26,113 nt of DNA from Vulcanimicrobiota bacterium (lineage in GTDB: Bacteria; Vulcanimicrobiota; Vulcanimicrobiia; Vulcanimicrobiales; Vulcanimicrobiaceae). Numbering within the stretch: position 1 is the first letter of the stretch; each line of letters starts with the position of its first letter. The notes below the pieces were generated by a model. The model did no database searches. It worked only from the letters and a program-made list of their open reading frames with translations, and was not told the origin of the DNA. Both the position numbers and the translations under genes were made by a program. Positions 15,536-24,235 of this stretch are shown one piece after another. The stretch lies in NCBI GenBank assembly GCA_003167055.1, contig PMUE01000097.1:1-26113 (forward strand), in the 5' to 3' direction.

Positions 15536-16320
15536 TGATCGGACTCTTCGATTCGGGTCTGGGTGGACTGACCGTTCTTCGACGCGTGCGCGAGCGGTTG
15601 CCCGACGTCGACGTGCTATTTTTCGCCGATCAGGCGCACGTGCCGTATGGCGGCCGCGCAGCCGGCGATCTCTTTGCGTTGTTGCAAAATAATCTGGCGT
15701 GGCTCGATGAGCGCGGCGTCGAGGCGATCGTCATGGCGTGCAACACCTCGTGCGCGATCGCCGATCTCTACGGCTGGCCGCCAACCCAGGCCGAGGTCTT
15801 CGACCTCTTGGATTCAGCGACGATCGAGCTGCAACAGCGCGGTGCCCGCCGCATCGGTGTCGTTGCGACCGCTGCGACCGTGCGCTCAGGCGCGTACGGA
15901 CGGCGCATTCGCAATGCGATCCCGGAGAGTGAAGTGTGGGAAGTGGCCGCGCCGGCGCTCGTACCGCTCGTCGAGGCCGGTGAAATCGAAACGGTGGCCG
16001 CGCGTGACGCGGTCGCGCGCGTCTGTGCCGAGCTGCCGCCGGATCTCGATGCGGTCGTCTACGGCTGCACGCACTATCCGGTGCTCGAGTCTCATTTTCG
16101 CGCGGCGCTCGGCGATCGTGTCGAATTGATCGACCCCGCCTTCGTGCAGGCGGCGCGTCTGGCGGAGTTCTTGCAACTCGACGAAGCGCCGATCGGCTCA
16201 GGCACCACGCGCTACGTCACGAGCGGCGATCCCGAACACTTCCGCCGCAGCGTCGCGGCGATTATGGAAGAACAAACACCCGTCGTGAGTGGCCTGGGCT
16301 ACGCTTCGGATGTGACGTAA
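15535..16320 (+). CDS. murI: Glutamate racemase
   Basis: IGLFDSGLGGLTV, PYG, ACNTS and GCTHYP (both catalytic Cys). GTG 15535 overlaps the amidase TAG. Confidence 0.96.
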   Translation: MIGLFDSGLGGLTVLRRVRERLPDVDVLFFADQAHVPYGGRAAGDLFALLQNNLAWLDERGVEAIVMACNTSCAIADLYGWPPTQAEVFDLLDSATIELQQRGARRIGVVATAATVRSGAYGRRIRNAIPESEVWEVAAPALVPLVEAGEIETVAARDAVARVCAELPPDLDAVVYGCTHYPVLESHFRAALGDRVELIDPAFVQAARLAEFLQLDEAPIGSGTTRYVTSGDPEHFRRSVAAIMEEQTPVVSGLGYASDVT

Positions 16321-16330
16321 GCTTCGAGGC

Positions 16331-16825
16331 TCACGCCGGCATCGCAAGGTATTTTTCCACCATCTTCGCTTGCGCTTCCCAGCCTTCGTCGTTGGCTTCG
16401 AACGCGTCGGCGCGACGTTCGATCGGGATGGCGTCGAATCCGGACTCGACGATCGTGAGCTGCGTGCCGCCGTCTTTGGGCTCGAGCATGAACTCGACCA
16501 GCGTCGTCGGCTCCTTCGAATAGTCGTAATTCGGGTCGATGCTGAACGGGTGCCAGCGGAACGAGAACCGGCGCATCGGCTCAATGCGATCGACGATGAA
16601 GCCGAATTTCATACCCGAGTATTTCTCTTGCGTTTTGGCGACCTCGGGATCCACCTTGGTGGGCACGAGGACGCCGGAGATCGGTTGGCCAGGGGCAAAT
16701 TCGCCGTCAAATTGCATGCCGAACCAGGCACCGAACTGCCGTGATTCACTGATAGCGCGCCAGACACGCTCCTGCGGCGCGCGAAGAAATATTCGCTTCA
16801 CGATGCGATCCGTCGATGAAACCAT
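16331..16825 (-). CDS. SRPBCC/AHSA1-family protein
   Basis: IVKRIFLRAPQERVWRAI, FGAWFG, FSFRWHP, PTTLVEF, GTQLTIVESGF and N.EGW. GGAGG RBS before ATG 16825. Confidence 0.9.
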   Translation of the reverse strand: MVSSTDRIVKRIFLRAPQERVWRAISESRQFGAWFGMQFDGEFAPGQPISGVLVPTKVDPEVAKTQEKYSGMKFGFIVDRIEPMRRFSFRWHPFSIDPNYDYSKEPTTLVEFMLEPKDGGTQLTIVESGFDAIPIERRADAFEANDEGWEAQAKMVEKYLAMPA

Positions 16826-16852
16826 ATGCAACCTCCAGGTTGCATATTAGCA
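16824..16852 (-). promoter_or_regulatory. Palindromic operator overlapping the extended -10 promoter and RBS of the SRPBCC gene
   Basis: Perfect inverted repeat ATATGCAACC-N4-GGTTGCATAT at 16824-16847, and TGnTAATAT on the - strand at 16852-16844. Confidence 0.65.
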
Positions 16853-16880
16853 CACGCGAGTTAGGAAAACAAGGCGCGCT

Positions 16881-16917
16881 TTGTCATCCCGAGCGTAGAG
16901 AGCGAAGCGAACGTAGT
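16881..16917 (+). repeat. REP/REPIN-like repeat, left (truncated) copy
   Basis: TTGTCATCCCGAGCGTAGAGAGCGAAGCGAACGTAGT resembles GTCATCC.GAGCG..GCGA-type extragenic repeats. Its first 16 nt match the reverse complement of 18171-18186 exactly. Confidence 0.6.
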
Positions 16918-16973
16918 GTGCCCGGACCGTGCCCACTCGGCGCTCATCCGTCAGAGCGTAGCCCCAGAGCCCG

Positions 16974-16982
16974 TGCTAGAAT
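16974..16982 (+). promoter_or_regulatory. Candidate extended -10 promoter (TGCTAGAAT)
   Basis: TGn plus TAGAAT about 60 nt upstream of a TAAGGAG RBS/GTG start at 17042. Confidence 0.4.
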
Positions 16983-17041
16983 GGTCGCGGCGATCGTCAG
17001 AAACAAGCTGCGCATCGCGTGCGCATTAAGGAGAGCAGCAC

Positions 17042-17221
17042 GTGATCTACGAGAGCATTACCAAAGAACGGTTAGCCATCTTCGCCGTCATCATCACGAT
17101 GCTGGTGCTACAGATGCGCCTACCGTCACACGAACTGCCCAAAAGTGGGACTCTTGCCGGGCCTTGTGCTCATCGCACGCTCCTAAGATCGATATACATG
17201 CTCGCGACCCCAAAAGGTTAG
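17042..17221 (+). pseudogene. Probable remnant of a TMEM175/DUF1211-family K+ channel gene
   Basis: TAAGGAG RBS at 17027-17033. The N-terminus TKERLAIFAVIITMLVLQMRLP resembles the family start RLEAFSDxxFAxxITxxVLxxxxP without the EAFSD segment; similarity is lost afterwards and the ORF stops at 59 aa. Confidence 0.42.
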
Positions 17222-17420
17222 GGTGGACCAAGGCGTGCGGGCTCAAGATCGGCGACACAACATCAATACCTAAGCGATCTCGCGGAGGCTCAGAATCGGA
17301 ACTGCCACTGCGTCGAACAACCTGTTCCCACAGGCTATGGGCTGCTCGGCTCAGGGACGCTCCTCTAACGAATAGAAGGGTCCGCGCAGGGGAGAGCACC
17401 TTAGCTTGTTGTGGAGATAA

Positions 17421-17519
17421 ATGACCGAATACGATTCAAGTGCCGACGACGCAGAAATCGTGGATAACTACCGCCTTGTCGCAGATGATACCGGAATACA
17501 ATTGGCGCTCTCAAGCTAG
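17421..17519 (+). CDS. Possible 32-aa acidic peptide or gene fragment
   Basis: GGAG 4 nt before ATG; MTEYDSSADDAEIVDNYRLVADDTGIQLALSS. No other support. Confidence 0.22.
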   Translation: MTEYDSSADDAEIVDNYRLVADDTGIQLALSS

Positions 17520-17675
17520 CGCAAAGCGACTTTGCTCCCTCGGCTGTAGCTGCGGGGCAACTAGTTATCAGGCGGTCAGCGGTGCCCAATTGCGGCCCAA
17601 CAGCGGCGACCTTCTTCGCCTCCCGGTTGTGGCTATCTGTCGGCCAAAGCGATCCCGTCACTCGCCTCAGCCGAA

Positions 17676-18092
17676 TTAGCAGCCCGTTTTTGACGAGGTG
17701 CGATTGAGCTCCATCATGACTTCACGCGGCGCAAGGCTTCGAACTTGATACATCTGGTGATAATCCGCGTCGCACAGTGTGCACACCACTTCTCGACCGT
17801 TATTCCCGATGATCAAATAGTGGCCGCCCACCATCTCCCTACGCAGGCCGAAACTCAGTTGGCACATCGGCGCCTGGCCCGCGGGCATCGAGTCGATGCG
17901 TATCGATGTGGCGCGCTCCCAACTCAAACTGTCACTCTTCTGACCTGGTTGCAGTTTGAGGTAGCCGTTCGCTGAGTTTATCTGCACCGGAATAGGCAGG
18001 AGATTGTATATTCGCGCCGCCGGAGCGGGGCGTGCGCACGCCAGGAAAAGAACAGCAGCGATCCAAGCGAATGTGATGCGCTTAAGGTTCAT
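17676..18092 (-). CDS. Secreted hypothetical protein with four Cys in the mature part (138 aa)
   Basis: GAAGGA RBS before ATG 18092; signal peptide MNLKRITFAWIAAVLFLACARPAPA. The upstream part of the track ORF is read-through across the repeat and the MCP end. Confidence 0.75.
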   Translation of the reverse strand: MNLKRITFAWIAAVLFLACARPAPAARIYNLLPIPVQINSANGYLKLQPGQKSDSLSWERATSIRIDSMPAGQAPMCQLSFGLRREMVGGHYLIIGNNGREVVCTLCDADYHQMYQVRSLAPREVMMELNRTSSKTGC

Positions 18093-18170
18093 CGTGAATT
18101 CCTTCCGGATGGCACAAACAAAGATGCCGCCAGGTTGATTCGGGGCACGCCGCTGCGGACCCGCTATTGG

Positions 18171-18186
18171 ACGCTCGGGATGACAA
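18171..18186 (-). repeat. REP/REPIN-like repeat, right (truncated) inverted copy
   Basis: ACGCTCGGGATGACAA is the reverse complement of 16881-16896 and starts 9 nt past the chemoreceptor stop codon. Confidence 0.6.
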
Positions 18187-18195
18187 GAGAGGGGG

Positions 18196-20838
18196 CTAGG
18201 AAAATAGGGCGCGGCGTTGGCGCTCGAGTTCAACGGTTGAACTGAGCGCGGCGCGGCTATCTTGGGCGTGTGATTCGACCAGGGCCGCCATCTGCGAGTA
18301 ATCGCCGTACATCGCGTAGGCGCGGCGCGCTTCGTCGTTGGCGGCGTCCTCGGCTTGTTCGAGCGTGAATTGCGCCGAGCTGGCAAACTGCTCGATGCGC
18401 CCGAAGGCTTCTTGCGCCATACGCGCCTGACGCGCGCTGTGCTCGGCTTTCGCTACGCCGTTTTCGATCGCGACGCCGGCGGATTTGCCGCGCGCTTCGA
18501 GATCGCTGAGGACTTTGCGAATGTCTAGCGTCGAGGCCTTGGTCTTGTCGGCAAGACTGCGCACCTCACCGGCGACGACATTGAAGCCTTTGCCGTGGTC
18601 ACCGGCGCGCGCAGCCTCGATCGCCGCGTTGAGCGCGAGCAAGTTCGTTTTGTCCGAGACCGAGCGCACCAGATTGATGATCTCGAAGATCTGATGCATC
18701 GATTTCGCGAACTGGTCGAGCGCATTACGGCTCTGCACCGCCATCGACGAAAGCACGTTGATCGTGTCGATCAGCTCGCCGACGGTGTCACGCATGACGC
18801 GCACCTGCGGGGCGACCTGCTCGAAGCGCTCCCCAAGGCCGAGAAAGTCCTTGGCGAGTTTCTCGTTCGAACCGCTCAGAGCCATGGATTGCTGCGAGAG
18901 CCCGTTCAGGCTCGAGATCTGCGACCGCGATTGAGTGCCGATCGTATCGCCGGTCGCGCGTACCGAGTTGACCGAACGGTCGATCGACTCGATGATATCG
19001 TTAAGAGTGAAGCCGTGCGTTGCGTCGTGCGAGCCGAGGTTGACGCGCGGACGCCAAGCGTCCAGATTGCGGTTGAGCAAGAGCCGGAACACGTCGGTCG
19101 GGAAGAGCGGTTCCATGCGCTCCCACACGAAGCGCGACGTCTTGACGAAGTCCTCGCGCTCGTCCGGCTGCAGCTCGTGCACCTCGAGGTGTTTGCGCAG
19201 CTCGGTCAGCGCGCGCAGATCGTCTTCGGCGGAGATGCGGCGGTGATACTGCCTGGCTTCGCTGAAAGCTTGCTGGACGAGCTCGCGGTCGGACGCCGGC
19301 AACAGGTGCCAACGCTCGATATTCCCCAGCACGATCTGGGTGTTGTAGGTGTGCGCGGTCAGCGAAAGGTAGCGCTGCACTTCATACAGACGCGCGCCGA
19401 GGGTGTTGGCGAGCGGGTTTTCTTGCGCATCGACTTCGTGGTTTTGCAGCGAGCGGTAGACGTCGTTGAAGCCGATAACCTTGGGCGAGGCGCCGAGCGC
19501 GTGCATCAGCGCGAGGTACACGACCGAATCTTGAATGCGTACCCGCATCTTGCGCATGTCCGAAGGACGGCGGATCGGATGTAAGCTGTTGGTGAAGTGA
19601 CGCAGCCCGTTCTCGAAAAAGCCCAGGCCGTGCAGCCCGAACGACTCGAACGATGAGAGGATGTGTTCGCCGAGCGGACCGTCGAGCAACCGGTGCGCCG
19701 ATTCACGGTCGGGAAAGACGAACGGCAGATCGAGCAATTGGGCGAGCGGCACGAGCGCGCCGGCGACGTACGTCGTCACGCTGACCATATCGAGTTCACC
19801 CGAGCGCACGCGCAGGAGCGCTTCCATCTCGCTGCCACCGGTAAACGGAATCTCCAACTCGATACGCAAGCGTCCTTCGGAGAGCTCGAGCGTGCGCTCC
19901 GCCACATATTCCCATGCCCGCGATGGCGGATAGCCCGGCGGCAGAAGCGTCGCGATTTTGATCGTCGTGTGTTCGCTCTTCGACGCGGTACGCGAACGCG
20001 AGATGTATTCGATCTCTGCGCCGTAGTACGCGAGACGCTGCGTCGCGAAGGCGGATTCGAGTGCTTCGCGCCCCTGAGCGGCGGCAACGTTTGCAAGACC
20101 GTCGGTTGATTTGCGCATTGCTTCGGCGGCGTGACTGTGATCGCGGCCACTGATCACCGCACGATCGATCGTGACCGAGAGATCCGCCGCAAGCTCAGCA
20201 ATTTCTGCCAGCGACGTCCGGGCGATTTCGGCCAGCGGGGCCGACGCCGCCGAGCGCTCGGCGTTCTCGCGCACCGCTTTAATCGTCGCTTCCGCTTCGC
20301 GTTGAATCTCGACGACGAGATTCTTGATCACGGAGGTCGATTCGTTCGTCGTCTTTGCGAGCCGGCCGACTTCACCGGCGACGACGGCAAAACCGAGGCC
20401 ATGCTGTCCGGCACGCGCGGCTTCGATCGCGGCATTGAGCGCGAGCAGCTGCGTTTCGTCGCTGACGTCTTCGACAAATTCCGTCATGCGGCCGATCTCG
20501 CTCATCAAGCGACCGAAATCGTCCATTGCGATGGCGGTGTCGGCGGAAAGATCGGCCAGCTGTTGCACCGAGGTCAAAAGATTCTCGACGACTTCGAACG
20601 AGTTGCCCAAATCCGATGCGGCGGCACGCGCGGACGCTTGCGCGGACTGCAGCCGTTCGGCCGTTTCGCGTGAGGCCGACGCAAGCGTCCCGGCAGTGTC
20701 CGAGAGCGCCACCATCAGCGTGGTCTGCTCTTGCGCGGTGGCGGCGATCGCCTCCGAGGCCTGGCGGACCGCGTCGACCGCGGTAGCGATGCTCGCGTTG
20801 AAGCGATCGAAGAGTTCGTCCTCGCGCGTTGAGATCAT
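18196..20838 (-). CDS. Soluble methyl-accepting chemotaxis protein with MA - DctP (TRAP solute-binding) - MA architecture
   Basis: Two hairpin-tip signatures ([29 protein letters not shown] at aa ~129-157 and [30 protein letters not shown] at aa ~731-760) flank a DctP-like domain (aa ~291-590: [28 protein letters not shown]...VDAQENP). No TM segment or signal peptide is visible. Confidence 0.92.
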
Positions 20839-21581
20839 GACTTCGGCCTATTCGCCGGACCGAGGAACCATCCATAGGCCGCGTAGCCGCGATAATGCGG
20901 CTGCGAGCCATAGCTGCGGCCCGCCGAGAAGAGCAGGCCGTGGACCGCGCCGAGCATATGCGTGTAGCCCACGCCGATATCTGACTGCGCATAGTCGTCG
21001 TGCGGCGTAGTCCGGGTAAACTCCATTCCAATAGTATCGTCCGGGCTCAGCGGATACGTAGCCGCAAGGCCGGCCTGCCAATCACCGTTTCCCGTCTCGT
21101 CCCGACCGAAATCGAAGCCGCCGCCGCCGAAGATCGTCACCTTGCCAACCGTCTTCTGTGCCCACAGCGGCAGAAACAGCGTGCCGTGCCCTTGGCCGAC
21201 TCCGGAAGCGCCCGTCGCGAAGGTCACCTGCGGATAGAACGAGATCTGCGGTGAGCGCGCGGTCTCTTGCATGAATCGAACCTTGAGGCCGCTTTCGAAA
21301 TCCTCGAGCCCATAGGCGCTGGGCGTGCCGGGCGCGGTCTGTTGCGCATCGCCGAAATGCGCCGAGAACTGCACGTTGGGCATCAACCCATAGTTGATTT
21401 CCAAGAACGGCAGCTCCGACGTCGCTACGCCGACATCTTGATGGGTAGCCGCTCCGGAATAGATCTCATAGTTGCGATAGTCTGTCGGCGCCGGATCATC
21501 GGTATCATACGGCGGTCCGGCGAGCACGTGTAAGGGAAAGGCGGCTGCGCAAAGCGCGAGCAATCCGGCGATCAACCTCAT
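20835..21581 (-). CDS. Putative outer-membrane beta-barrel 'transporter'-family protein
   Basis: Signal peptide, [10 protein letters not shown]-terminal motif, alternating aromatic/hydrophobic strands and YAAYGWF near the C-terminus. TGA overlaps the MCP ATG (ATGA). Confidence 0.68.
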
Positions 21582-21592
21582 AGCATTGTATG

Positions 21593-22237
21593 CTAAATGG
21601 GGAGCGTTTCACCCACATGAAAGATGTGGAAGAAGAGCACGGTCGAGACGGTAGCCAATGCCGCGCCCGCGATGACCTGGAGCAACGTATGAGCTTTAAG
21701 GTAGACGCGCGCCCAGCAGACCATCGGAATCAGGATCAGAAACGGTAGCGTCTGATTGCCGTAGAGCAGGGTAAGCGCGACCAGCGGAGCGGTGATGCCG
21801 ATGGCGTGCGTACTGATCTTCCAATAGCGCGTGATGTACTGAACGATCAGGGTGGACAGCGTGTAGGCTGCCATGGCCGCGATCATGATCCGCGGCGCGT
21901 GGGTGAGCCACATCGCAATCGTCCCCAGCAGATAGAACACCACGAACGCTCCAAATACGGATTCACGCTCGTGGCGGACCGACATATCCAAATCGGAGAC
22001 GCGATCGCTGCCGTACAGCCAGAAGACGTAGAGCATAGGCCCGATCGACGTGAAGAACGTCGAGAGGGCCAGCAGCCACCAAAAATCCAGCGTCCCGCGA
22101 GCACTCGCGTGCGCAAGGATGACGAAAAGCGCGAGCGCGGTTAAGAACGGATTGAAGATCGTCGAGAGAATGCGCGCCAGGTCGCGCCACGCCCGCCGGT
22201 TCTTGATCGGGACGGTCTCTTGCAACGGATCGTACAT
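21593..22237 (-). CDS. PAP2-superfamily-like integral membrane protein
   Basis: Multiple TM helices plus KISTH and WARVYLKAHT..QV, which resemble the PAP2 C2/C3 motifs. Start could be 22237 or TTG 22225. Confidence 0.68.
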   Translation of the reverse strand: MYDPLQETVPIKNRRAWRDLARILSTIFNPFLTALALFVILAHASARGTLDFWWLLALSTFFTSIGPMLYVFWLYGSDRVSDLDMSVRHERESVFGAFVVFYLLGTIAMWLTHAPRIMIAAMAAYTLSTLIVQYITRYWKISTHAIGITAPLVALTLLYGNQTLPFLILIPMVCWARVYLKAHTLLQVIAGAALATVSTVLFFHIFHVGETLPI

Positions 22238-22287
22238 TCGCCCGCTAGATTGGCCTCTGGGGGGTCCCCTCCCCCCGGGCAAGCGGG

Positions 22288-22305
22288 GCCGGGAGCGCTC
22301 CCGGC
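22288..22305. repeat. 18-bp perfect palindrome in the PAP2/dxs divergent intergenic region
   Basis: GCCGGGAGCGCTCCCGGC. Confidence 0.5.
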
Positions 22306-22324
22306 GAACCTTCGGCGGTCAATT

Positions 22325-24235
22325 ATGGTGATCGAACGCATCGAAACCCCTGCCGACGTCAAGCGCCTTTCGCGCGACGAACTGGACGTGCTTGCTCGCG
22401 AAATTCGCGACATGCTGGTCGTGACGTGCTCGCGCAACGGCGGGCATCTGGCGCCAAATTTGGGCGTGGTCGAGTTGACGATCGCGCTGCATCGTGTGCT
22501 CAACCTTCCCGGCGACAAGCTCGTGTGGGATGTTTCGCATCAAGCCTACGTTCATAAAATCCTCAGCGGCCGGCGCGATCGCTTCCACACCTTGCGCAAA
22601 GGCGGCGGCATCTCCGGGTTTGCCATGCGCAGTGAGTCGCCGTACGATCAATTCGGCGCCGGTCATGCGTCGACGTCGGTCTCCGCAGCCTATGGGATGG
22701 CGGTGGCGCGCGATCTTGCCGGGCGCGACGAAACGGTCGTCGCGGTGCTTGGCGACGGCGCGCTGACGGGCGGACTCGCGTATGAAGCGCTCAACAACGC
22801 CGGACAACTCGATTCGAATTTCATCGTCATCCTCAACGACAACGAGATGTCGATCGCGCCCAATGTGGGATCGATCGCCTCGTACTTGTCGGTGCTGCGC
22901 ACCAAGCCGCTCGCAAATTTCGTACGCGAACGCGCCAAGGACGTCTTCGAGCACATCCCGTTCGGGGGTGCTGCGCGCAAGGCGTTCGCCAGTGCCGAGA
23001 TGGGGGCGATGCGCTTCGTGGCGCCATCCGAGAAAACCGCCGTCATATTCGAAGAGCTGGGCTTTCGCTACATGGGCCCGTTCGACGGTCATAACTTAGA
23101 CACCATGATCGATGCGCTCGAGACGGCCAGGAACGTCGATCGTCCCGTGTTGCTGCACGTGCGTACGCTCAAAGGCAAAGGATACGAGCCCGCCGAGAAA
23201 GATTCGCGCACGTTTCACGGCGTCTCGAGCGCGTTCGACGTCGAGAACGGCAAGCTCGAGATCAAGCCCGACGCGCGACCCACGTTTTCGGACGTCTTCG
23301 CCGGCGCGCTGATCGAACTGGCAAAAGACAATCCCAAGCTTATCGCAATCACCGCTGCGATGCCCGACGGCACCAAGCTCTCGAAGTTTGCAAAGCAGTT
23401 TCCGGAGCGCTTCTTCGACGTCGGCATCGCTGAGGCGCACGCGGTCTGCATGGCGGCGGGAGCCGCGACCAGCGGCCTGCAGCCGGTTTGTGCAATCTAC
23501 TCGACGTTTCTGCAACGCGCGTACGACCAAATCGTGCACGACGTCTGCGTGCAGAATCTTCCGGTCGTCTTTTGCATGGATCGCGCGGGCTTTGTCGGCG
23601 ACGACGGGCCCACGCACATGGGTCTCTACGATATCGCCTACCTGCGCACACTGCCGAACATGTCGGTGATGGCGCCGCGCAACGAAGACGAGTTGCTGCC
23701 GATGCTCGCGCACGCGCTCTCGCGCAATGCCCCGGTGGGAATCCGCTATCCGCGCGGTTCGACCAGCGGCCGGCATCGCGACCCGGTCGCGCCGATCGAA
23801 CACGGCAAAGCCGAGGTCCTGCGCAAGGGAAGCGGCGTGGCGATGCTCGCACTCGGCAACACCGTCGACGTTGCCTTGGACGCCTACGACTTGCTGGCTA
23901 GCGGCGAGTTTGGCCGCTCGGACCGGTTGCCGACCGTGGTCAACGCCCGCTTTGCCAAACCGATCGACGAGGCGCTCATCGCCGAGTTGGCCGCCGACCA
24001 TGATCTGATCCTTACGCTCGAGGAACACTCACTCGCAGGCGGCTTTGGGTCGGCGGTCGTAGAGAAGGTGTCGGATTTGGGCCTTTCGGTCCGGGTGCAG
24101 CGCATCGGCGTCGCCGACGTGCTGGTGCACCACGATTCCCAGCCCAGTCAACGTGCGCTCTTCGGGCTCTCCGCGCAAGCGATCGCGGAGCGGCTCGCGC
24201 GCGCGCTCGACCCGCATCAGGAGATACATCGTTGA
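22325..24235 (+). CDS. dxs: 1-deoxy-D-xylulose-5-phosphate synthase
   Basis: GGHLAPNLGVVELT, WDVSHQAYVHK, GHASTS, GDGALTGG.AYEALN, ILNDNEMSI, GPFDGH, DVGIAEAH, YSTFLQRAYDQ and DRAGFVGDDGPTH. Confidence 0.97.
   Translation: MVIERIETPADVKRLSRDELDVLAREIRDMLVVTCSRNGGHLAPNLGVVELTIALHRVLNLPGDKLVWDVSHQAYVHKILSGRRDRFHTLRKGGGISGFAMRSESPYDQFGAGHASTSVSAAYGMAVARDLAGRDETVVAVLGDGALTGGLAYEALNNAGQLDSNFIVILNDNEMSIAPNVGSIASYLSVLRTKPLANFVRERAKDVFEHIPFGGAARKAFASAEMGAMRFVAPSEKTAVIFEELGFRYMGPFDGHNLDTMIDALETARNVDRPVLLHVRTLKGKGYEPAEKDSRTFHGVSSAFDVENGKLEIKPDARPTFSDVFAGALIELAKDNPKLIAITAAMPDGTKLSKFAKQFPERFFDVGIAEAHAVCMAAGAATSGLQPVCAIYSTFLQRAYDQIVHDVCVQNLPVVFCMDRAGFVGDDGPTHMGLYDIAYLRTLPNMSVMAPRNEDELLPMLAHALSRNAPVGIRYPRGSTSGRHRDPVAPIEHGKAEVLRKGSGVAMLALGNTVDVALDAYDLLASGEFGRSDRLPTVVNARFAKPIDEALIAELAADHDLILTLEEHSLAGGFGSAVVEKVSDLGLSVRVQRIGVADVLVHHDSQPSQRALFGLSAQAIAERLARALDPHQEIHR

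What the first reader, a model, noticed from the sequence alone, without database searches (positions are those of the whole stretch)
18196..20838. Single-chain, membrane-free chemoreceptor with two signalling hairpins clamped around a TRAP (DctP) ligand-binding domain
Seen in sequence: 880 aa with no TM or signal segment; MA hairpin 1 (aa ~8-280, nt ~20817-19999), a DctP-like domain (aa ~291-590, nt ~19968-19069) and MA hairpin 2 (aa ~610-880, nt ~19011-18199). Both hairpins are about 270 aa with centred tips, and both connect to the DctP domain. The DctP part keeps residues in the positions of the carboxylate-binding Arg, Phe and Asn of SiaP/DctP proteins (RVR434IQ, F457, EN474P). Established: chemoreceptors work as dimers of two hairpins; DctP domains are normally periplasmic Venus-flytrap binders of organic acids; double-signalling-domain receptors such as Vibrio cholerae DosM scaffold cytoplasmic arrays. 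Inference: either one chain forms an intramolecular pseudo-dimer gated by flytrap closure on a cytoplasmic carboxylate metabolite, or the hairpins point in opposite directions and bridge the two baseplates of a cytoplasmic array with a ligand-sensing hinge. I do not know of this architecture being characterised.
Basis: partly seen in the sequence, partly recalled or inferred. Interest (0 to 1): 0.9.

Follow-up and report, generated by a model that had tools for sequence, protein, structure and literature searches.

The report
Soluble two-hairpin chemoreceptor with TRAP-type sensor
This gene encodes a membrane-free chemotaxis receptor in which a binding domain normally used outside the cell by TRAP transporters sits between two signalling hairpins. 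The design is real, found so far only in one bacterial phylum, and unstudied, and it probably lets the cell steer by an internal organic acid.

Summary
Window 18196-20838 (-) encodes an 880-aa protein with no membrane segment. It has MCPsignal (aa 2-284), DctP (292-588), a disordered 23-aa linker, and a second MCPsignal (612-879). The carboxylate-binding residues R413, R434, F457 and N474 are invariant across the family.

It is not a misjoin. Full-length orthologues occur in 37 of 301 Eremiobacterota genomes, including closed ones, and this scan met the same design before on other DNA (e1-2987007).

New here:
- Hairpin 1 plus DctP is a widespread, unstudied module. Single-hairpin MCP-DctP proteins, soluble or membrane-anchored, occur in several phyla, with both arginines always kept.
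- Hairpin 2 arose inside that lineage.
- Closed genomes of the genus have one flagellar CheA/CheW, CheB and CheR, no triple CheW and no TRAP membrane subunit.

How the hairpins pack is unresolved. AlphaFold2 packs them into one intramolecular four-helix bundle, but it does the same to a genuine DosM orthologue, so that model is uninformative. A 2+2 chain competition gave hetero-pairing with weak support only (0.50, best control 0.00). The rigid hairpin 1 junction, floppy hairpin 2 linker and single methylation-type site fit a single-chain pseudo-dimer slightly better than a DosM-like double-ended rod.

Verdict: a new variant of known kinds.

The parts
18196..20838 (-). Whole gene: 880-aa soluble chemoreceptor (MCPsignal-DctP-MCPsignal), stop codon at 18196-18198
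   Evidence: 99% identical orthologue in a closed genome of the same genus
19987..20835 (-). Hairpin 1 (aa 2-284): N-arm 2-142, tip near 144-147, C-arm 144-284. This is the better conserved hairpin. Its C-arm end (F264, Q267, R268, L269, Y271, Y272, G273, E275) is invariant.
   Evidence: Pfam MCPsignal 94 bits; AF2 secondary structure; conservation
20389..20424 (-). Tip 1 (aa 139-150, [12 protein letters not shown]), the canonical kinase/CheW-contact hairpin turn
   Evidence: invariant in the family
20713..20742 (-). The only consensus methylation-type site (aa 33-42 window; Q36-E37 pair within [10 protein letters not shown]) in the N-arm of hairpin 1
   Evidence: motif scan plus conservation: Q in 78 of 80 and E in 73 of 80 sequences. 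No conserved equivalent in hairpin 2.
19966..19986 (-). Short junction (aa 285-291) from the hairpin 1 C-arm into the first DctP strand; length varies by only 1-2 residues
19075..19965 (-). DctP / TRAP-type solute-binding domain (aa 292-588), cytoplasmic by topology
   Evidence: Pfam DctP 224 bits, TIGR00787 212 bits; VIA-align Z 36.2, rmsd 2.1 A over 304 residues to apo IseP 8t9t_A; phmmer 1e-51 to 4P47
19600..19602 (-). R413, equivalent to R152 of 4P47 (supports the carboxylate)
   Evidence: invariant; R in 31 of 31 MCP-DctP fusion proteins from several phyla
19537..19539 (-). R434, equivalent to R173 of 4P47 and R147 of SiaP (salt bridge to the ligand carboxylate)
   Evidence: invariant; R in 31 of 31 fusion proteins
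19468..19470 (-). F457, the aromatic lid residue (Y196 of 4P47)
   Evidence: invariant inside the family, variable between subfamilies
19417..19419 (-). N474 in the QENP motif (N213 of 4P47)
   Evidence: invariant
19006..19074 (-). Disordered, sequence-variable linker (aa 589-611) from DctP to hairpin 2; length conserved to within about 3 residues
   Evidence: pLDDT below 50 for aa 599-608; indels confined to this stretch and the 285-290 junction; lowest conservation of any segment
18199..19005 (-). Hairpin 2 (aa 612-880): N-arm 612-744, tip near 746-749, C-arm 750-879. It evolves faster than hairpin 1 and has no conserved methylation-type site.
   Evidence: Pfam MCPsignal 103 bits

Best explanation
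The gene encodes a cytoplasmic chemoreceptor. It senses an intracellular organic acid (a carboxylate whose identity is unknown) with a TRAP-type Venus-flytrap domain and reports to the cell's single flagellar CheA/CheW/CheY pathway. This would be a form of metabolism-dependent taxis. The sensing unit is hairpin 1 plus DctP: the hairpin 1 C-arm runs almost directly (7 residues) through an invariant helical end into the first DctP strand, so flytrap closure would act on that helix. Hairpin 1 also carries the only methylation-type site for CheR/CheB adaptation. Hairpin 2 is a diverged copy from the same hairpin lineage, tied on by a 23-residue floppy linker. In the favoured reading it folds back and pairs in register with hairpin 1. 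One chain would then form one four-helix 'dimer-equivalent' bundle with two tips at one end and a single sensor at the other. Shown: the domains, the cytoplasmic topology, the preserved ligand-binding residues, family conservation, the origin of hairpin 2, and the presence of one Che pathway. Inferred: ligand class, signalling through the C-arm, and above all the intramolecular pairing.
For: Domains and topology. DctP fold and binding residues; both arginines are kept in 31 of 31 MCP-DctP fusions. It is a sensor rather than a transporter part: this is the only DctP in the genome, DctM was not found in it, and DctM is absent from 4 of 5 closed or near-closed relatives. Pathway: one CheA with an adjacent CheW in a fliP-flhB-flhA-PilZ-cheY-cheC/X-cheA-cheW cluster, plus CheB and CheR. 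Hairpin 1 + DctP as the core module: single-hairpin MCP-DctP proteins align to aa 14-580 in the same phylum and in Sporomusa, Sulfuricaulis, Rokubacteria and Rhodocyclales. Hairpin 1, hairpin 2 and the paralogue hairpin form one clade (99/98 support). Pairing: single-chain four-helix bundles superpose across both hairpins of the AF2 model (6z0c_A, 199 of 199 residues, rmsd 3.2 A, model range 86-809). In a 2xH1 + 2xH2 competition, ESMFold2 put H1 against H2 along the whole length: score 0.50, best of 3 controls 0.00, verdict 'weak support'. That mark was reached by 58 of 80 solved complexes and 2 of 110 mismatches, but scores of 0.60 or under came from only 7 of the 80 and from both mismatches. 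Asymmetry: rigid conserved junction against variable linker, and a methylation-type site only in hairpin 1. In-register covariation between the C-arm of H1 and the N-arm of H2 (18 of the top 120 pairs against 7.3% background, peaking at zero shift) is as strong as for the certain N1-C1 contact.
Against: The AF2 monomer result carries little weight. A genuine F9 DosM orthologue (P0104, next to a 511-aa CheW-only protein and F9 che genes) is also folded back into an intramolecular bundle, yet cryo-ET describes DosM as an extended rod with a tip at each end (PMC7534058). The complex score is only 'weak support', used my own alignment, and used a 2+2 design unlike the tool's calibration. The covariation test is underpowered, its positive controls barely pass, and many pairs reflect a single clade split. 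Arm lengths never vary in the family, so length co-variation could not be tested. The top of hairpin 2 is poorly conserved although it would pack on the very conserved top of hairpin 1. No ligand, binding partner or expression data exist. The same genus also has another soluble double-hairpin receptor without DctP, which keeps DosM-like two-layer arrays plausible.
Confidence: 0.45

Rival explanations
1. Double-ended receptor, DosM-like in how it works. Two chains dimerise so that hairpin 1 pairs with hairpin 1' and hairpin 2 with hairpin 2'. The bundles point in opposite directions and insert into two CheA/CheW baseplates of a cytoplasmic sandwich array, with a layer of DctP sensors in the middle. 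Hairpin 1 would be the sensing and adapting half, and hairpin 2 a scaffold half.
For: There is precedent: DosM spans two baseplates, and cytoplasmic arrays are two-layered (PMC7534058; PMC9321776). The single-hairpin MCP-DctP relatives must form H:H' homodimers, so H1:H1' pairing is the ancestral state. The variable top of hairpin 2, its lack of a methylation site and its floppy tether fit a signal-blind scaffold, as in DosM homologues, of which 98% lack sensors. Closed genomes of the same genus also carry a second soluble double-hairpin receptor. The AF2 fold-back is uninformative.
Against: No triple CheW and only one CheA/CheW pair in closed genomes. The gene is not in a che cluster. In DosM the two hairpins are joined helix-to-helix (300 residues tip to tip, arms 150/150), which gives a rigid strut. 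Here a 297-aa domain and a disordered 23-aa linker intervene, which makes a poor strut. The 2+2 competition chose H1:H2 rather than H1:H1 + H2:H2 in all three runs, with weak support.
Confidence: 0.3
2. Domain-swapped dimer. Hairpin 1 of one chain pairs with hairpin 2 of a second chain and vice versa. This gives two hetero four-helix bundles and two DctP domains per particle, or open-ended chains that could stitch neighbouring receptor units together in an array.
For: It rests on the same hetero-pairing evidence as the pseudo-dimer, which cannot tell cis from trans. The 23-aa linker is long enough for either. The orthologue in G115 reads as two ORFs broken exactly in the linker. If that break is genuine, hairpin 2 can work in trans.
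Against: Nothing favours trans over cis, and an intramolecular partner has the higher effective concentration. The G115 split may be a one-base assembly error.
Confidence: 0.12
3. Not a working chemoreceptor. Either it is an assembly chimera, or a decaying fusion, or a TRAP transporter binding protein as most databases label it.
For: Source annotations call family members 'DctP family TRAP transporter solute-binding subunit'.
Against: The frame is intact and 54-99% identical in 37 genomes, including single-contig ones, with conserved synteny. Both tips and the ligand residues are invariant. There is no signal peptide. No DctM was found in the genome or in most closed relatives.
Confidence: 0.03

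Closest known systems
DosM (Vibrio cholerae VC1403) and its F9-class orthologues, e.g. P0104
   Same: A soluble chemoreceptor with two MCP signalling hairpins in one chain. The hairpins are non-identical and derive from an internal duplication.
   Different: DosM hairpins are fused helix-to-helix (300 residues tip to tip). 98% have no sensor, and they sit beside a triple CheW and F9 che genes. Here a 297-aa DctP domain and a disordered linker separate the hairpins. There is no triple CheW, the only CheA is in a flagellar cluster, and the hairpins are not specifically related to DosM hairpins in the tree.
Single-hairpin MCP-DctP proteins (uncharacterised; e.g. Sporomusa acidovorans WP_093796093.1, Sulfuricaulis WP_368428486.1, Eremiobacterota paralogues L022:8115-9938 and L023:8130-9932)
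   Same: An MCP hairpin whose C-arm leads straight into a DctP domain that is cytoplasmic by topology. Both carboxylate-binding arginines are kept. The Eremiobacterota soluble forms share a clade with hairpins 1 and 2.
   Different: They end after DctP and have no second hairpin, so they must homodimerise with two sensors per bundle. Many are anchored by two N-terminal membrane helices, with or without HAMP. The hairpins of those in other phyla are not specifically related, so the fusion probably arose more than once.
TRAP transporter solute-binding proteins (DctP, SiaP, IseP; PDB 4P47, 8T9T)
   Same: The fold (Z 36, rmsd 2.1 A), 27-35% identity, and the conserved Arg/Arg/aromatic/Asn carboxylate site.
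   Different: Those proteins are exported, free-standing and deliver ligand to DctQM. This domain has no signal peptide, is embedded between cytoplasmic domains, and DctM was not found in the genome. Reviews state that SBPs are extracytosolic (PMC8050422).
Soluble chemoreceptors with a sensor after the signalling hairpin (e.g. Helicobacter TlpD with a C-terminal CZB domain; from my own knowledge, not tested here)
   Same: No membrane segment, with input entering through the C-terminal arm of the hairpin.
   Different: A different sensor fold, one hairpin, homodimeric.

Membership tests
Methyl-accepting chemotaxis protein signalling domain (PF00015) | Profile match above the gathering score, with the canonical hairpin tip | tested here: met
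   Two matches of 94 and 103 bits against a cut-off of 34.6. Both tips carry [22 protein letters not shown] and are invariant.
Methyl-accepting chemotaxis protein signalling domain (PF00015) | Cognate CheA/CheW and adaptation enzymes in the genome | tested here: met
   CheA is split over contigs C373 and C332 with CheW beside it, and CheB and CheR are on C307. There is one CheA plus one CheW in closed genomes of the genus.
Methyl-accepting chemotaxis protein signalling domain (PF00015) | Physical binding to CheA/CheW, methylation, and control of kinase activity | not testable with these tools
   One consensus methylation-type motif in hairpin 1 only. No biochemical data.
Cytoplasmic (class IV) chemoreceptors | No transmembrane segment or signal peptide | tested here: met
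   The highest 19-residue hydropathy mean is 1.62, inside the DctP core. The AF2 model has no membrane-like helix outside the domains.
DctP / TRAP solute-binding protein family (PF03480, TIGR00787) | Sequence profile and fold | tested here: met
   224 bits (Pfam) and 212.5 bits against a cut-off of 175 (TIGR00787). Z 36.2 to 8t9t_A.
DctP / TRAP solute-binding protein family (PF03480, TIGR00787) | Conserved carboxylate-binding arginines, aromatic lid and asparagine | tested here: met
   R413, R434, F457 and N474 align to R152, R173, Y196 and N213 of 4P47 and are invariant.
TRAP transporter (as a working transporter subunit) | An exported binding protein with partner DctQ/DctM membrane subunits | tested here: not met
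   No signal peptide. DctM was not found in the 74%-complete genome and is absent from 4 of 5 closed or near-closed relatives that carry the gene.
DosM / F9-class double signalling domain receptor | Two signalling domains in direct tandem, without a sensor | tested here: not met
   Two domains are present, but they are separated by DctP plus a linker: tip-to-tip distance is 602 aa against 300 in P0104, P0116 and P0121.
DosM / F9-class double signalling domain receptor | Concatenated triple CheW (CheW3) and an F9 che gene cluster | tested here: not met
   Only CheA-P5 and one single-domain CheW in closed genomes of the genus. Neighbours are an amidase, a racemase-family protein, PAP2, Dxs and an Opp ATPase. 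The positive control P0104 does have a 511-aa CheW-only neighbour.
DosM / F9-class double signalling domain receptor | Spans two baseplates as an extended rod | not testable with these tools
   Prediction cannot decide. AF2 folds even the DosM orthologue back on itself.

The most novel reading that the evidence does not exclude
A natural single-chain chemoreceptor 'dimer'. One polypeptide supplies both hairpins of the four-helix signalling bundle, so that a monomeric, asymmetric Venus-flytrap sensor is coupled one-to-one to the bundle. This would hard-wire the half-of-sites asymmetry that ordinary homodimeric receptors only show transiently, and it would read out an intracellular metabolite. 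Together with the wider single-hairpin MCP-DctP group, it would also establish that TRAP-type binding domains work as cytoplasmic sensors, against the textbook view that they are extracytoplasmic.
Probability: 0.4. Interest if true: 0.8.

Novelty: new variant of a known kind. Interest (0 to 1): 0.62.

Why it matters
Chemoreceptor signalling is understood almost entirely from symmetric homodimers with outside-facing sensors. This protein offers a natural test of three open points:
- whether one sensor on one helix of the bundle is enough to control the kinase;
- how soluble receptors sense the metabolic state of the cell;
- how double-hairpin receptors are arranged when they are not rigid DosM struts.

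It also shows, together with single-hairpin relatives in cultured bacteria such as Sporomusa acidovorans, that a whole group of chemoreceptors is mislabelled in databases as 'TRAP transporter substrate-binding proteins'. TRAP-type binding domains appear to have been recruited repeatedly as cytoplasmic sensors. For Eremiobacterota, a widespread and scarcely cultured soil phylum, it points to taxis guided by an internal organic acid.

Tried and rejected
1. Reading the hairpin packing from the AF2 model. The tool returns no coordinates, so I inferred packing from which solved single-chain four-helix bundles superpose across both hairpins. That worked. However, the same test on a genuine DosM orthologue showed that fold-back is AF2's default for a lone double-hairpin chain, so I do not count it as evidence for the pseudo-dimer.

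2. Complex prediction with 2 copies of each hairpin. Score 0.50, best of 3 controls 0.00, verdict 'weak support'. The mark was reached by 58 of 80 solved complexes and 2 of 110 mismatches, but scores of 0.60 or under came from only 7 of the 80 and from both mismatches. My own alignment and a 2+2 design differ from the calibration. I treat it as a hint only.

3. Covariation (MI with APC) between hairpins on 80 sequences. The positive controls were barely significant. The C1-N2 in-register signal (p about 0.003 before correction for 18 tests) is suggestive but confounded by phylogeny.

4. Co-variation of arm lengths. There are no indels in any arm across the family, so there was nothing to test.

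5. Net charge complementarity. Both hairpins are acidic (medians -16 and -4), which is not decisive.

6. Ligand identity from the nearest solved structures. The best sequence match, 4P47, is an apo structure, and the others bind assorted sugar acids, pantoate or erythronate that were often co-purified. No assignment beyond 'carboxylate' is justified.

7. Functional hints from gene neighbours. There are none. The synteny is with housekeeping genes, and the upstream 248-aa gene is confined to the genus.

8. Literature. Searches found no description of MCP-DctP fusions and none in the supplements of the DosM census. Briegel et al. 2016 (PMC5027440) is not held, so the DosM structure is cited through PMC7534058 and PMC9321776.

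9. Misassembly was rejected on conservation, without read mapping.
Full report
**1. The observation**

Window 18196-20838 on the minus strand is one open frame of 880 codons.

Domain matches:
- Pfam finds MCPsignal twice (aa 103-248 at 94 bits; aa 704-851 at 103 bits) and DctP once (aa 297-575 at 224-227 bits). All are far above the curated cut-offs.
- NCBIfam's DctP subfamily model TIGR00787 scores 212.5 against a cut-off of 175.

There is no membrane segment. The highest 19-residue hydropathy mean is 1.62, and it lies in the DctP core.

The two hairpin tips (EAARAG at aa 139 and 741) are centred. The hairpins align with each other over about 255 residues with a single 3-residue gap.

An AlphaFold2 model built on 64 family members (pLDDT 83.6, pTM 0.62) gives these segments:
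- helices 2-142 and 144-284;
- a seven-residue junction;
- the alpha/beta domain 292-588;
- a disordered stretch 589-611 (pLDDT below 50 at 599-608);
- helices 612-744 and 750-879.

**2. The central domain**

It superposes on solved TRAP binding proteins at Z 25-36. The best match is apo IseP (8t9t_A): Z 36.2, rmsd 2.1 A, 304 of 308 residues. By sequence the nearest solved protein is 4P47 (E 1e-51).

PMC11668362 names R152, R173, N213 and an aromatic residue at position 196 of 4P47 as the conserved carboxylate-binding set. In the HMMER alignment these fall on R413, R434, N474 and F457 of this protein (codons verified). All four are invariant in the family. No ligand more specific than 'an organic acid' can be inferred.

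**3. Real gene, narrow family**

A search of 5.8 billion proteins returned about 90 clusters with the same length and the same Pfam pair, at 53-93% identity. All named ones come from Eremiobacterota MAGs (Baltobacteraceae, Vulcanimicrobiaceae, Velthaea), apart from one MAG labelled Verrucomicrobiae.

In a sample of 301 genomes of the phylum, 41 have a match at E below 1e-80. Of these, 37 have the full-length gene, 4 have only a shorter paralogue, and 10 of 10 genomes in the window's own genus carry the full-length gene. Single-contig genomes carry it at 92-99% identity.

Synteny is kept across genera: cell-wall amidase and racemase-family gene on one side, PAP2 phosphatase, Dxs and an Opp ATPase on the other. 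A misjoin is excluded.

In the exhaustive search of 1.84 billion 50%-identity representatives, only one other full-length representative appears (P0068). The double-hairpin form is therefore a small, phylum-restricted family.

This scan met the same design before in another genome (e1-2987007). My independent checks agree with that note.

**4. A wider module found here**

The exhaustive search and the phylum census show many proteins that match aa 14-580 in one stretch, that is hairpin 1 plus DctP, and then end. They come in two forms:
- Soluble, 570-620 aa. These include paralogues in Eremiobacterota (Pfam MCPsignal + DctP).
- 670-727 aa, with two close N-terminal membrane helices, sometimes a HAMP domain, then the hairpin and a C-terminal DctP that must be cytoplasmic.

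Named members come from Sporomusa acidovorans (a cultured Firmicute), Sulfuricaulis, Rokubacteria and Rhodocyclales. Databases call them TRAP substrate-binding proteins.

In 31 such proteins both arginines are present 31 times out of 31, while the aromatic lid varies. This is as expected for working sensors with different ligands. Reviews of solute-binding proteins in signalling describe them as extracytosolic (PMC8050422). I found no paper on these fusions.

**5. Origin of hairpin 2**

In a maximum-likelihood tree of 67 hairpins, hairpin 1, hairpin 2 and the Eremiobacterota single-hairpin paralogues form one clade (support 99/98). That clade excludes the genome's own membrane receptors, DosM-type hairpins and the MCP-DctP proteins of other phyla. 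Hairpin 2 is thus a diverged copy from the same lineage, added after the DctP domain. It was not captured from another receptor. The fusions in other phyla probably arose independently.

Hairpin 2 evolves faster than hairpin 1: mean top-residue frequency is 0.68-0.73 against 0.77-0.80, and the tree branches are longer.

**6. Asymmetry of the two connections**

- The end of the hairpin 1 C-arm is one of the most conserved stretches of the protein (F264, Q267, R268, L269, Y271, Y272, G273 and E275 are invariant). It is helical up to aa 284, seven residues before the first DctP strand.
- The DctP-to-hairpin 2 connection is the least conserved segment and is predicted to be disordered. Its length is nevertheless held within about 3 residues.
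- The only consensus methylation-type motif ([10 protein letters not shown]; Q36 in 78 of 80 sequences, E37 in 73 of 80) is in hairpin 1.

Input and adaptation therefore both appear to belong to hairpin 1. Hairpin 2 looks like a structural partner.

**7. The pathway it can talk to**

The MAG (74% complete, 394 contigs) has CheA (split over two contigs), CheW, CheB, CheR and at least four other receptors, three of them with membrane helices.

Closed genomes of the genus have exactly one CheA with one CheW beside it, inside a cluster fliP ... flhB-flhA-PilZ-cheY-cheC/X-cheA-cheW. The likely output is therefore flagellar rotation. I could not assign the formal F class.

No TRAP membrane subunit (DctM) was found in the MAG, and none is present in 4 of 5 closed or near-closed relatives. 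This gene holds the only DctP domain in the MAG. The domain is a dedicated sensor, not a transporter part.

**8. How the hairpins are arranged**

This is the crux, and it is unresolved.

(a) In the AF2 monomer model the hairpins lie side by side, tips together. Solved single-chain four-helix bundles superpose on stretches drawn from both hairpins, symmetrically about the two tips. Examples are 6z0c_A (199 of 199 residues, rmsd 3.2 A, model range 86-809) and 6n63_A (141 of 141 residues, range 77-818).

(b) As a control I modelled P0104, a 643-aa double-hairpin protein. It sits next to a 511-aa CheW-only protein, cheB, cheR, cheY and cheA, which is the F9 signature given in PMC9321776. AF2 breaks its helix exactly at the hairpin boundary (aa 343-345) and also folds it back into one bundle: 1yo7_B, 117 of 120 residues, rmsd 1.8 A, range 165-524, with tips at 193 and 493. 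Cryo-ET describes DosM as an extended rod with a tip at each end (PMC7534058). The AF2 monomer outcome is therefore a default and says little.

(c) In a competition with two copies of each hairpin (aa 25-268 and 627-870), ESMFold2 laid hairpin 2 against hairpin 1 along the whole length. About four residues per heptad on both arms were in contact, in all three runs. The score was 0.50, the best of 3 controls 0.00, and the verdict 'weak support'. That mark was reached by 58 of 80 solved complexes and 2 of 110 mismatches. Scores of 0.60 or under came from only 7 of those 80 and from both mismatches. The job also differs from the calibration.

(d) Covariation between the hairpin 1 C-arm and the hairpin 2 N-arm is enriched at equal height above the tips: 18 of the top 120 pairs against 7.3% expected, with 2-11 at other register shifts. 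That is as strong as for the certain intra-hairpin contact (15 of 120). The test is underpowered and confounded by phylogeny.

(e) Mechanistic reasoning (inference). A disordered 23-residue tether cannot pass a conformational signal. Hairpin 2 is therefore either the passive half of one bundle whose active helix is the hairpin 1 C-arm, or a signal-blind scaffold reaching a second baseplate. By my rough estimate, one DctP per bundle fits the roughly 21 nm2 per receptor dimer of a 12-nm array lattice better than two do. That would give a reason to evolve a single-chain form from the homodimeric single-hairpin ancestor.

(f) Against this, closed genomes of the genus carry a second soluble double-hairpin receptor of 888 aa, without DctP and with degenerate tips. 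DosM-like arrays therefore remain plausible in this lineage even without a triple CheW.

My weights are:
- pseudo-dimer in cis: about 0.45;
- double-ended: about 0.30;
- domain-swapped hetero-pairing: about 0.12.

**9. Comparison with known systems**

It is a member of the MCP signalling-domain family and of the DctP fold family, with all tested features met. It is not a working TRAP transporter subunit, since it has no export signal and no DctM was found. It is not a member of the DosM/F9 group: its hairpins are not in tandem, it has a sensor, and there is no triple CheW or F9 cluster. It may still work like DosM.

Its nearest relatives are the uncharacterised single-hairpin MCP-DctP proteins. 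It is best filed as a new variant of known kinds that combines three known parts in an undescribed way.

**10. Limits**

There is no biochemical, expression or imaging evidence. Heptad and F classes were not assigned. The ligand is unknown.

Noticed in passing
L022:8115-9938 (+), L023:8130-9932 (-); proteins P0244-P0254, P0260, P0262, P0091-P0093: There is a broad, unstudied group of chemoreceptors with one signalling hairpin followed by a DctP domain that is cytoplasmic by topology. Some are soluble (570-620 aa) and some are anchored by two N-terminal membrane helices (670-727 aa). They occur in Eremiobacterota, Sporomusa acidovorans, Sulfuricaulis, Rokubacteria and Rhodocyclales, and databases label them TRAP substrate-binding proteins. 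Both carboxylate-binding arginines are kept in 31 of 31.
   Followed up: partly
L030:5654-8320 (-) (closed genome G136 of the same genus; also in G202): A second soluble double-hairpin receptor of 888 aa. It has degenerate tips at about aa 190 and 521 (tip-to-tip about 330 aa), no DctP, and a C-terminal region of about 230 aa with no Pfam match. It was not found in the window's own incomplete genome.
   Followed up: partly
model mcd811d0dda3b of P0104 (L029:8001-9932): The AlphaFold2 monomer model folds a genuine F9 DosM orthologue back into a single intramolecular four-helix bundle, breaking the helix at aa 343-345. Cryo-ET describes DosM as an extended two-tipped rod. This is a caution for anyone reading monomer models of double-hairpin receptors.
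   Followed up: yes
L026 about 9342 (genome G115): The orthologue reads as two overlapping ORFs (aa 1-609 and 608-879 equivalents), with the frame change exactly in the variable linker. This is either a one-base assembly error or a natural split of hairpin 2 from the sensor unit.
   Followed up: no
window 20835-21581 (-): A 248-aa ORF whose stop overlaps the receptor's start codon (ATGA). It has a signal-peptide-like N-terminus, a beta-rich and Gly/Tyr-rich sequence (outer-membrane barrel-like), and no Pfam match. It is found only in the same genus; in other genera the PAP2 gene abuts the receptor gene directly.
   Followed up: partly
window 22220-24235 (+): The true gene here is 1-deoxy-D-xylulose-5-phosphate synthase (Dxs, 375 bits). 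The long minus-strand ORFs 22319-23092 and 23096-24028 are shadow frames, which are less conserved than the plus-strand frame.
   Followed up: yes
window 16320-18196: About 1.9 kb lies between the racemase-family gene and the 3' end of the receptor gene. Its only ORFs have no family match and no conservation outside the genus. The 236-aa ORF 17676-18386 is conserved only where it overlaps the receptor gene.
   Followed up: no
genome contig C135: 5374-7731 (+) and 10806-13088 (+): Two nearly identical membrane chemoreceptors (760-785 aa) lie a few kb apart, with a CheW between them. About 207 residues follow the tip, against 135-143 in the soluble receptor, so they belong to a longer length class.
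   Followed up: no
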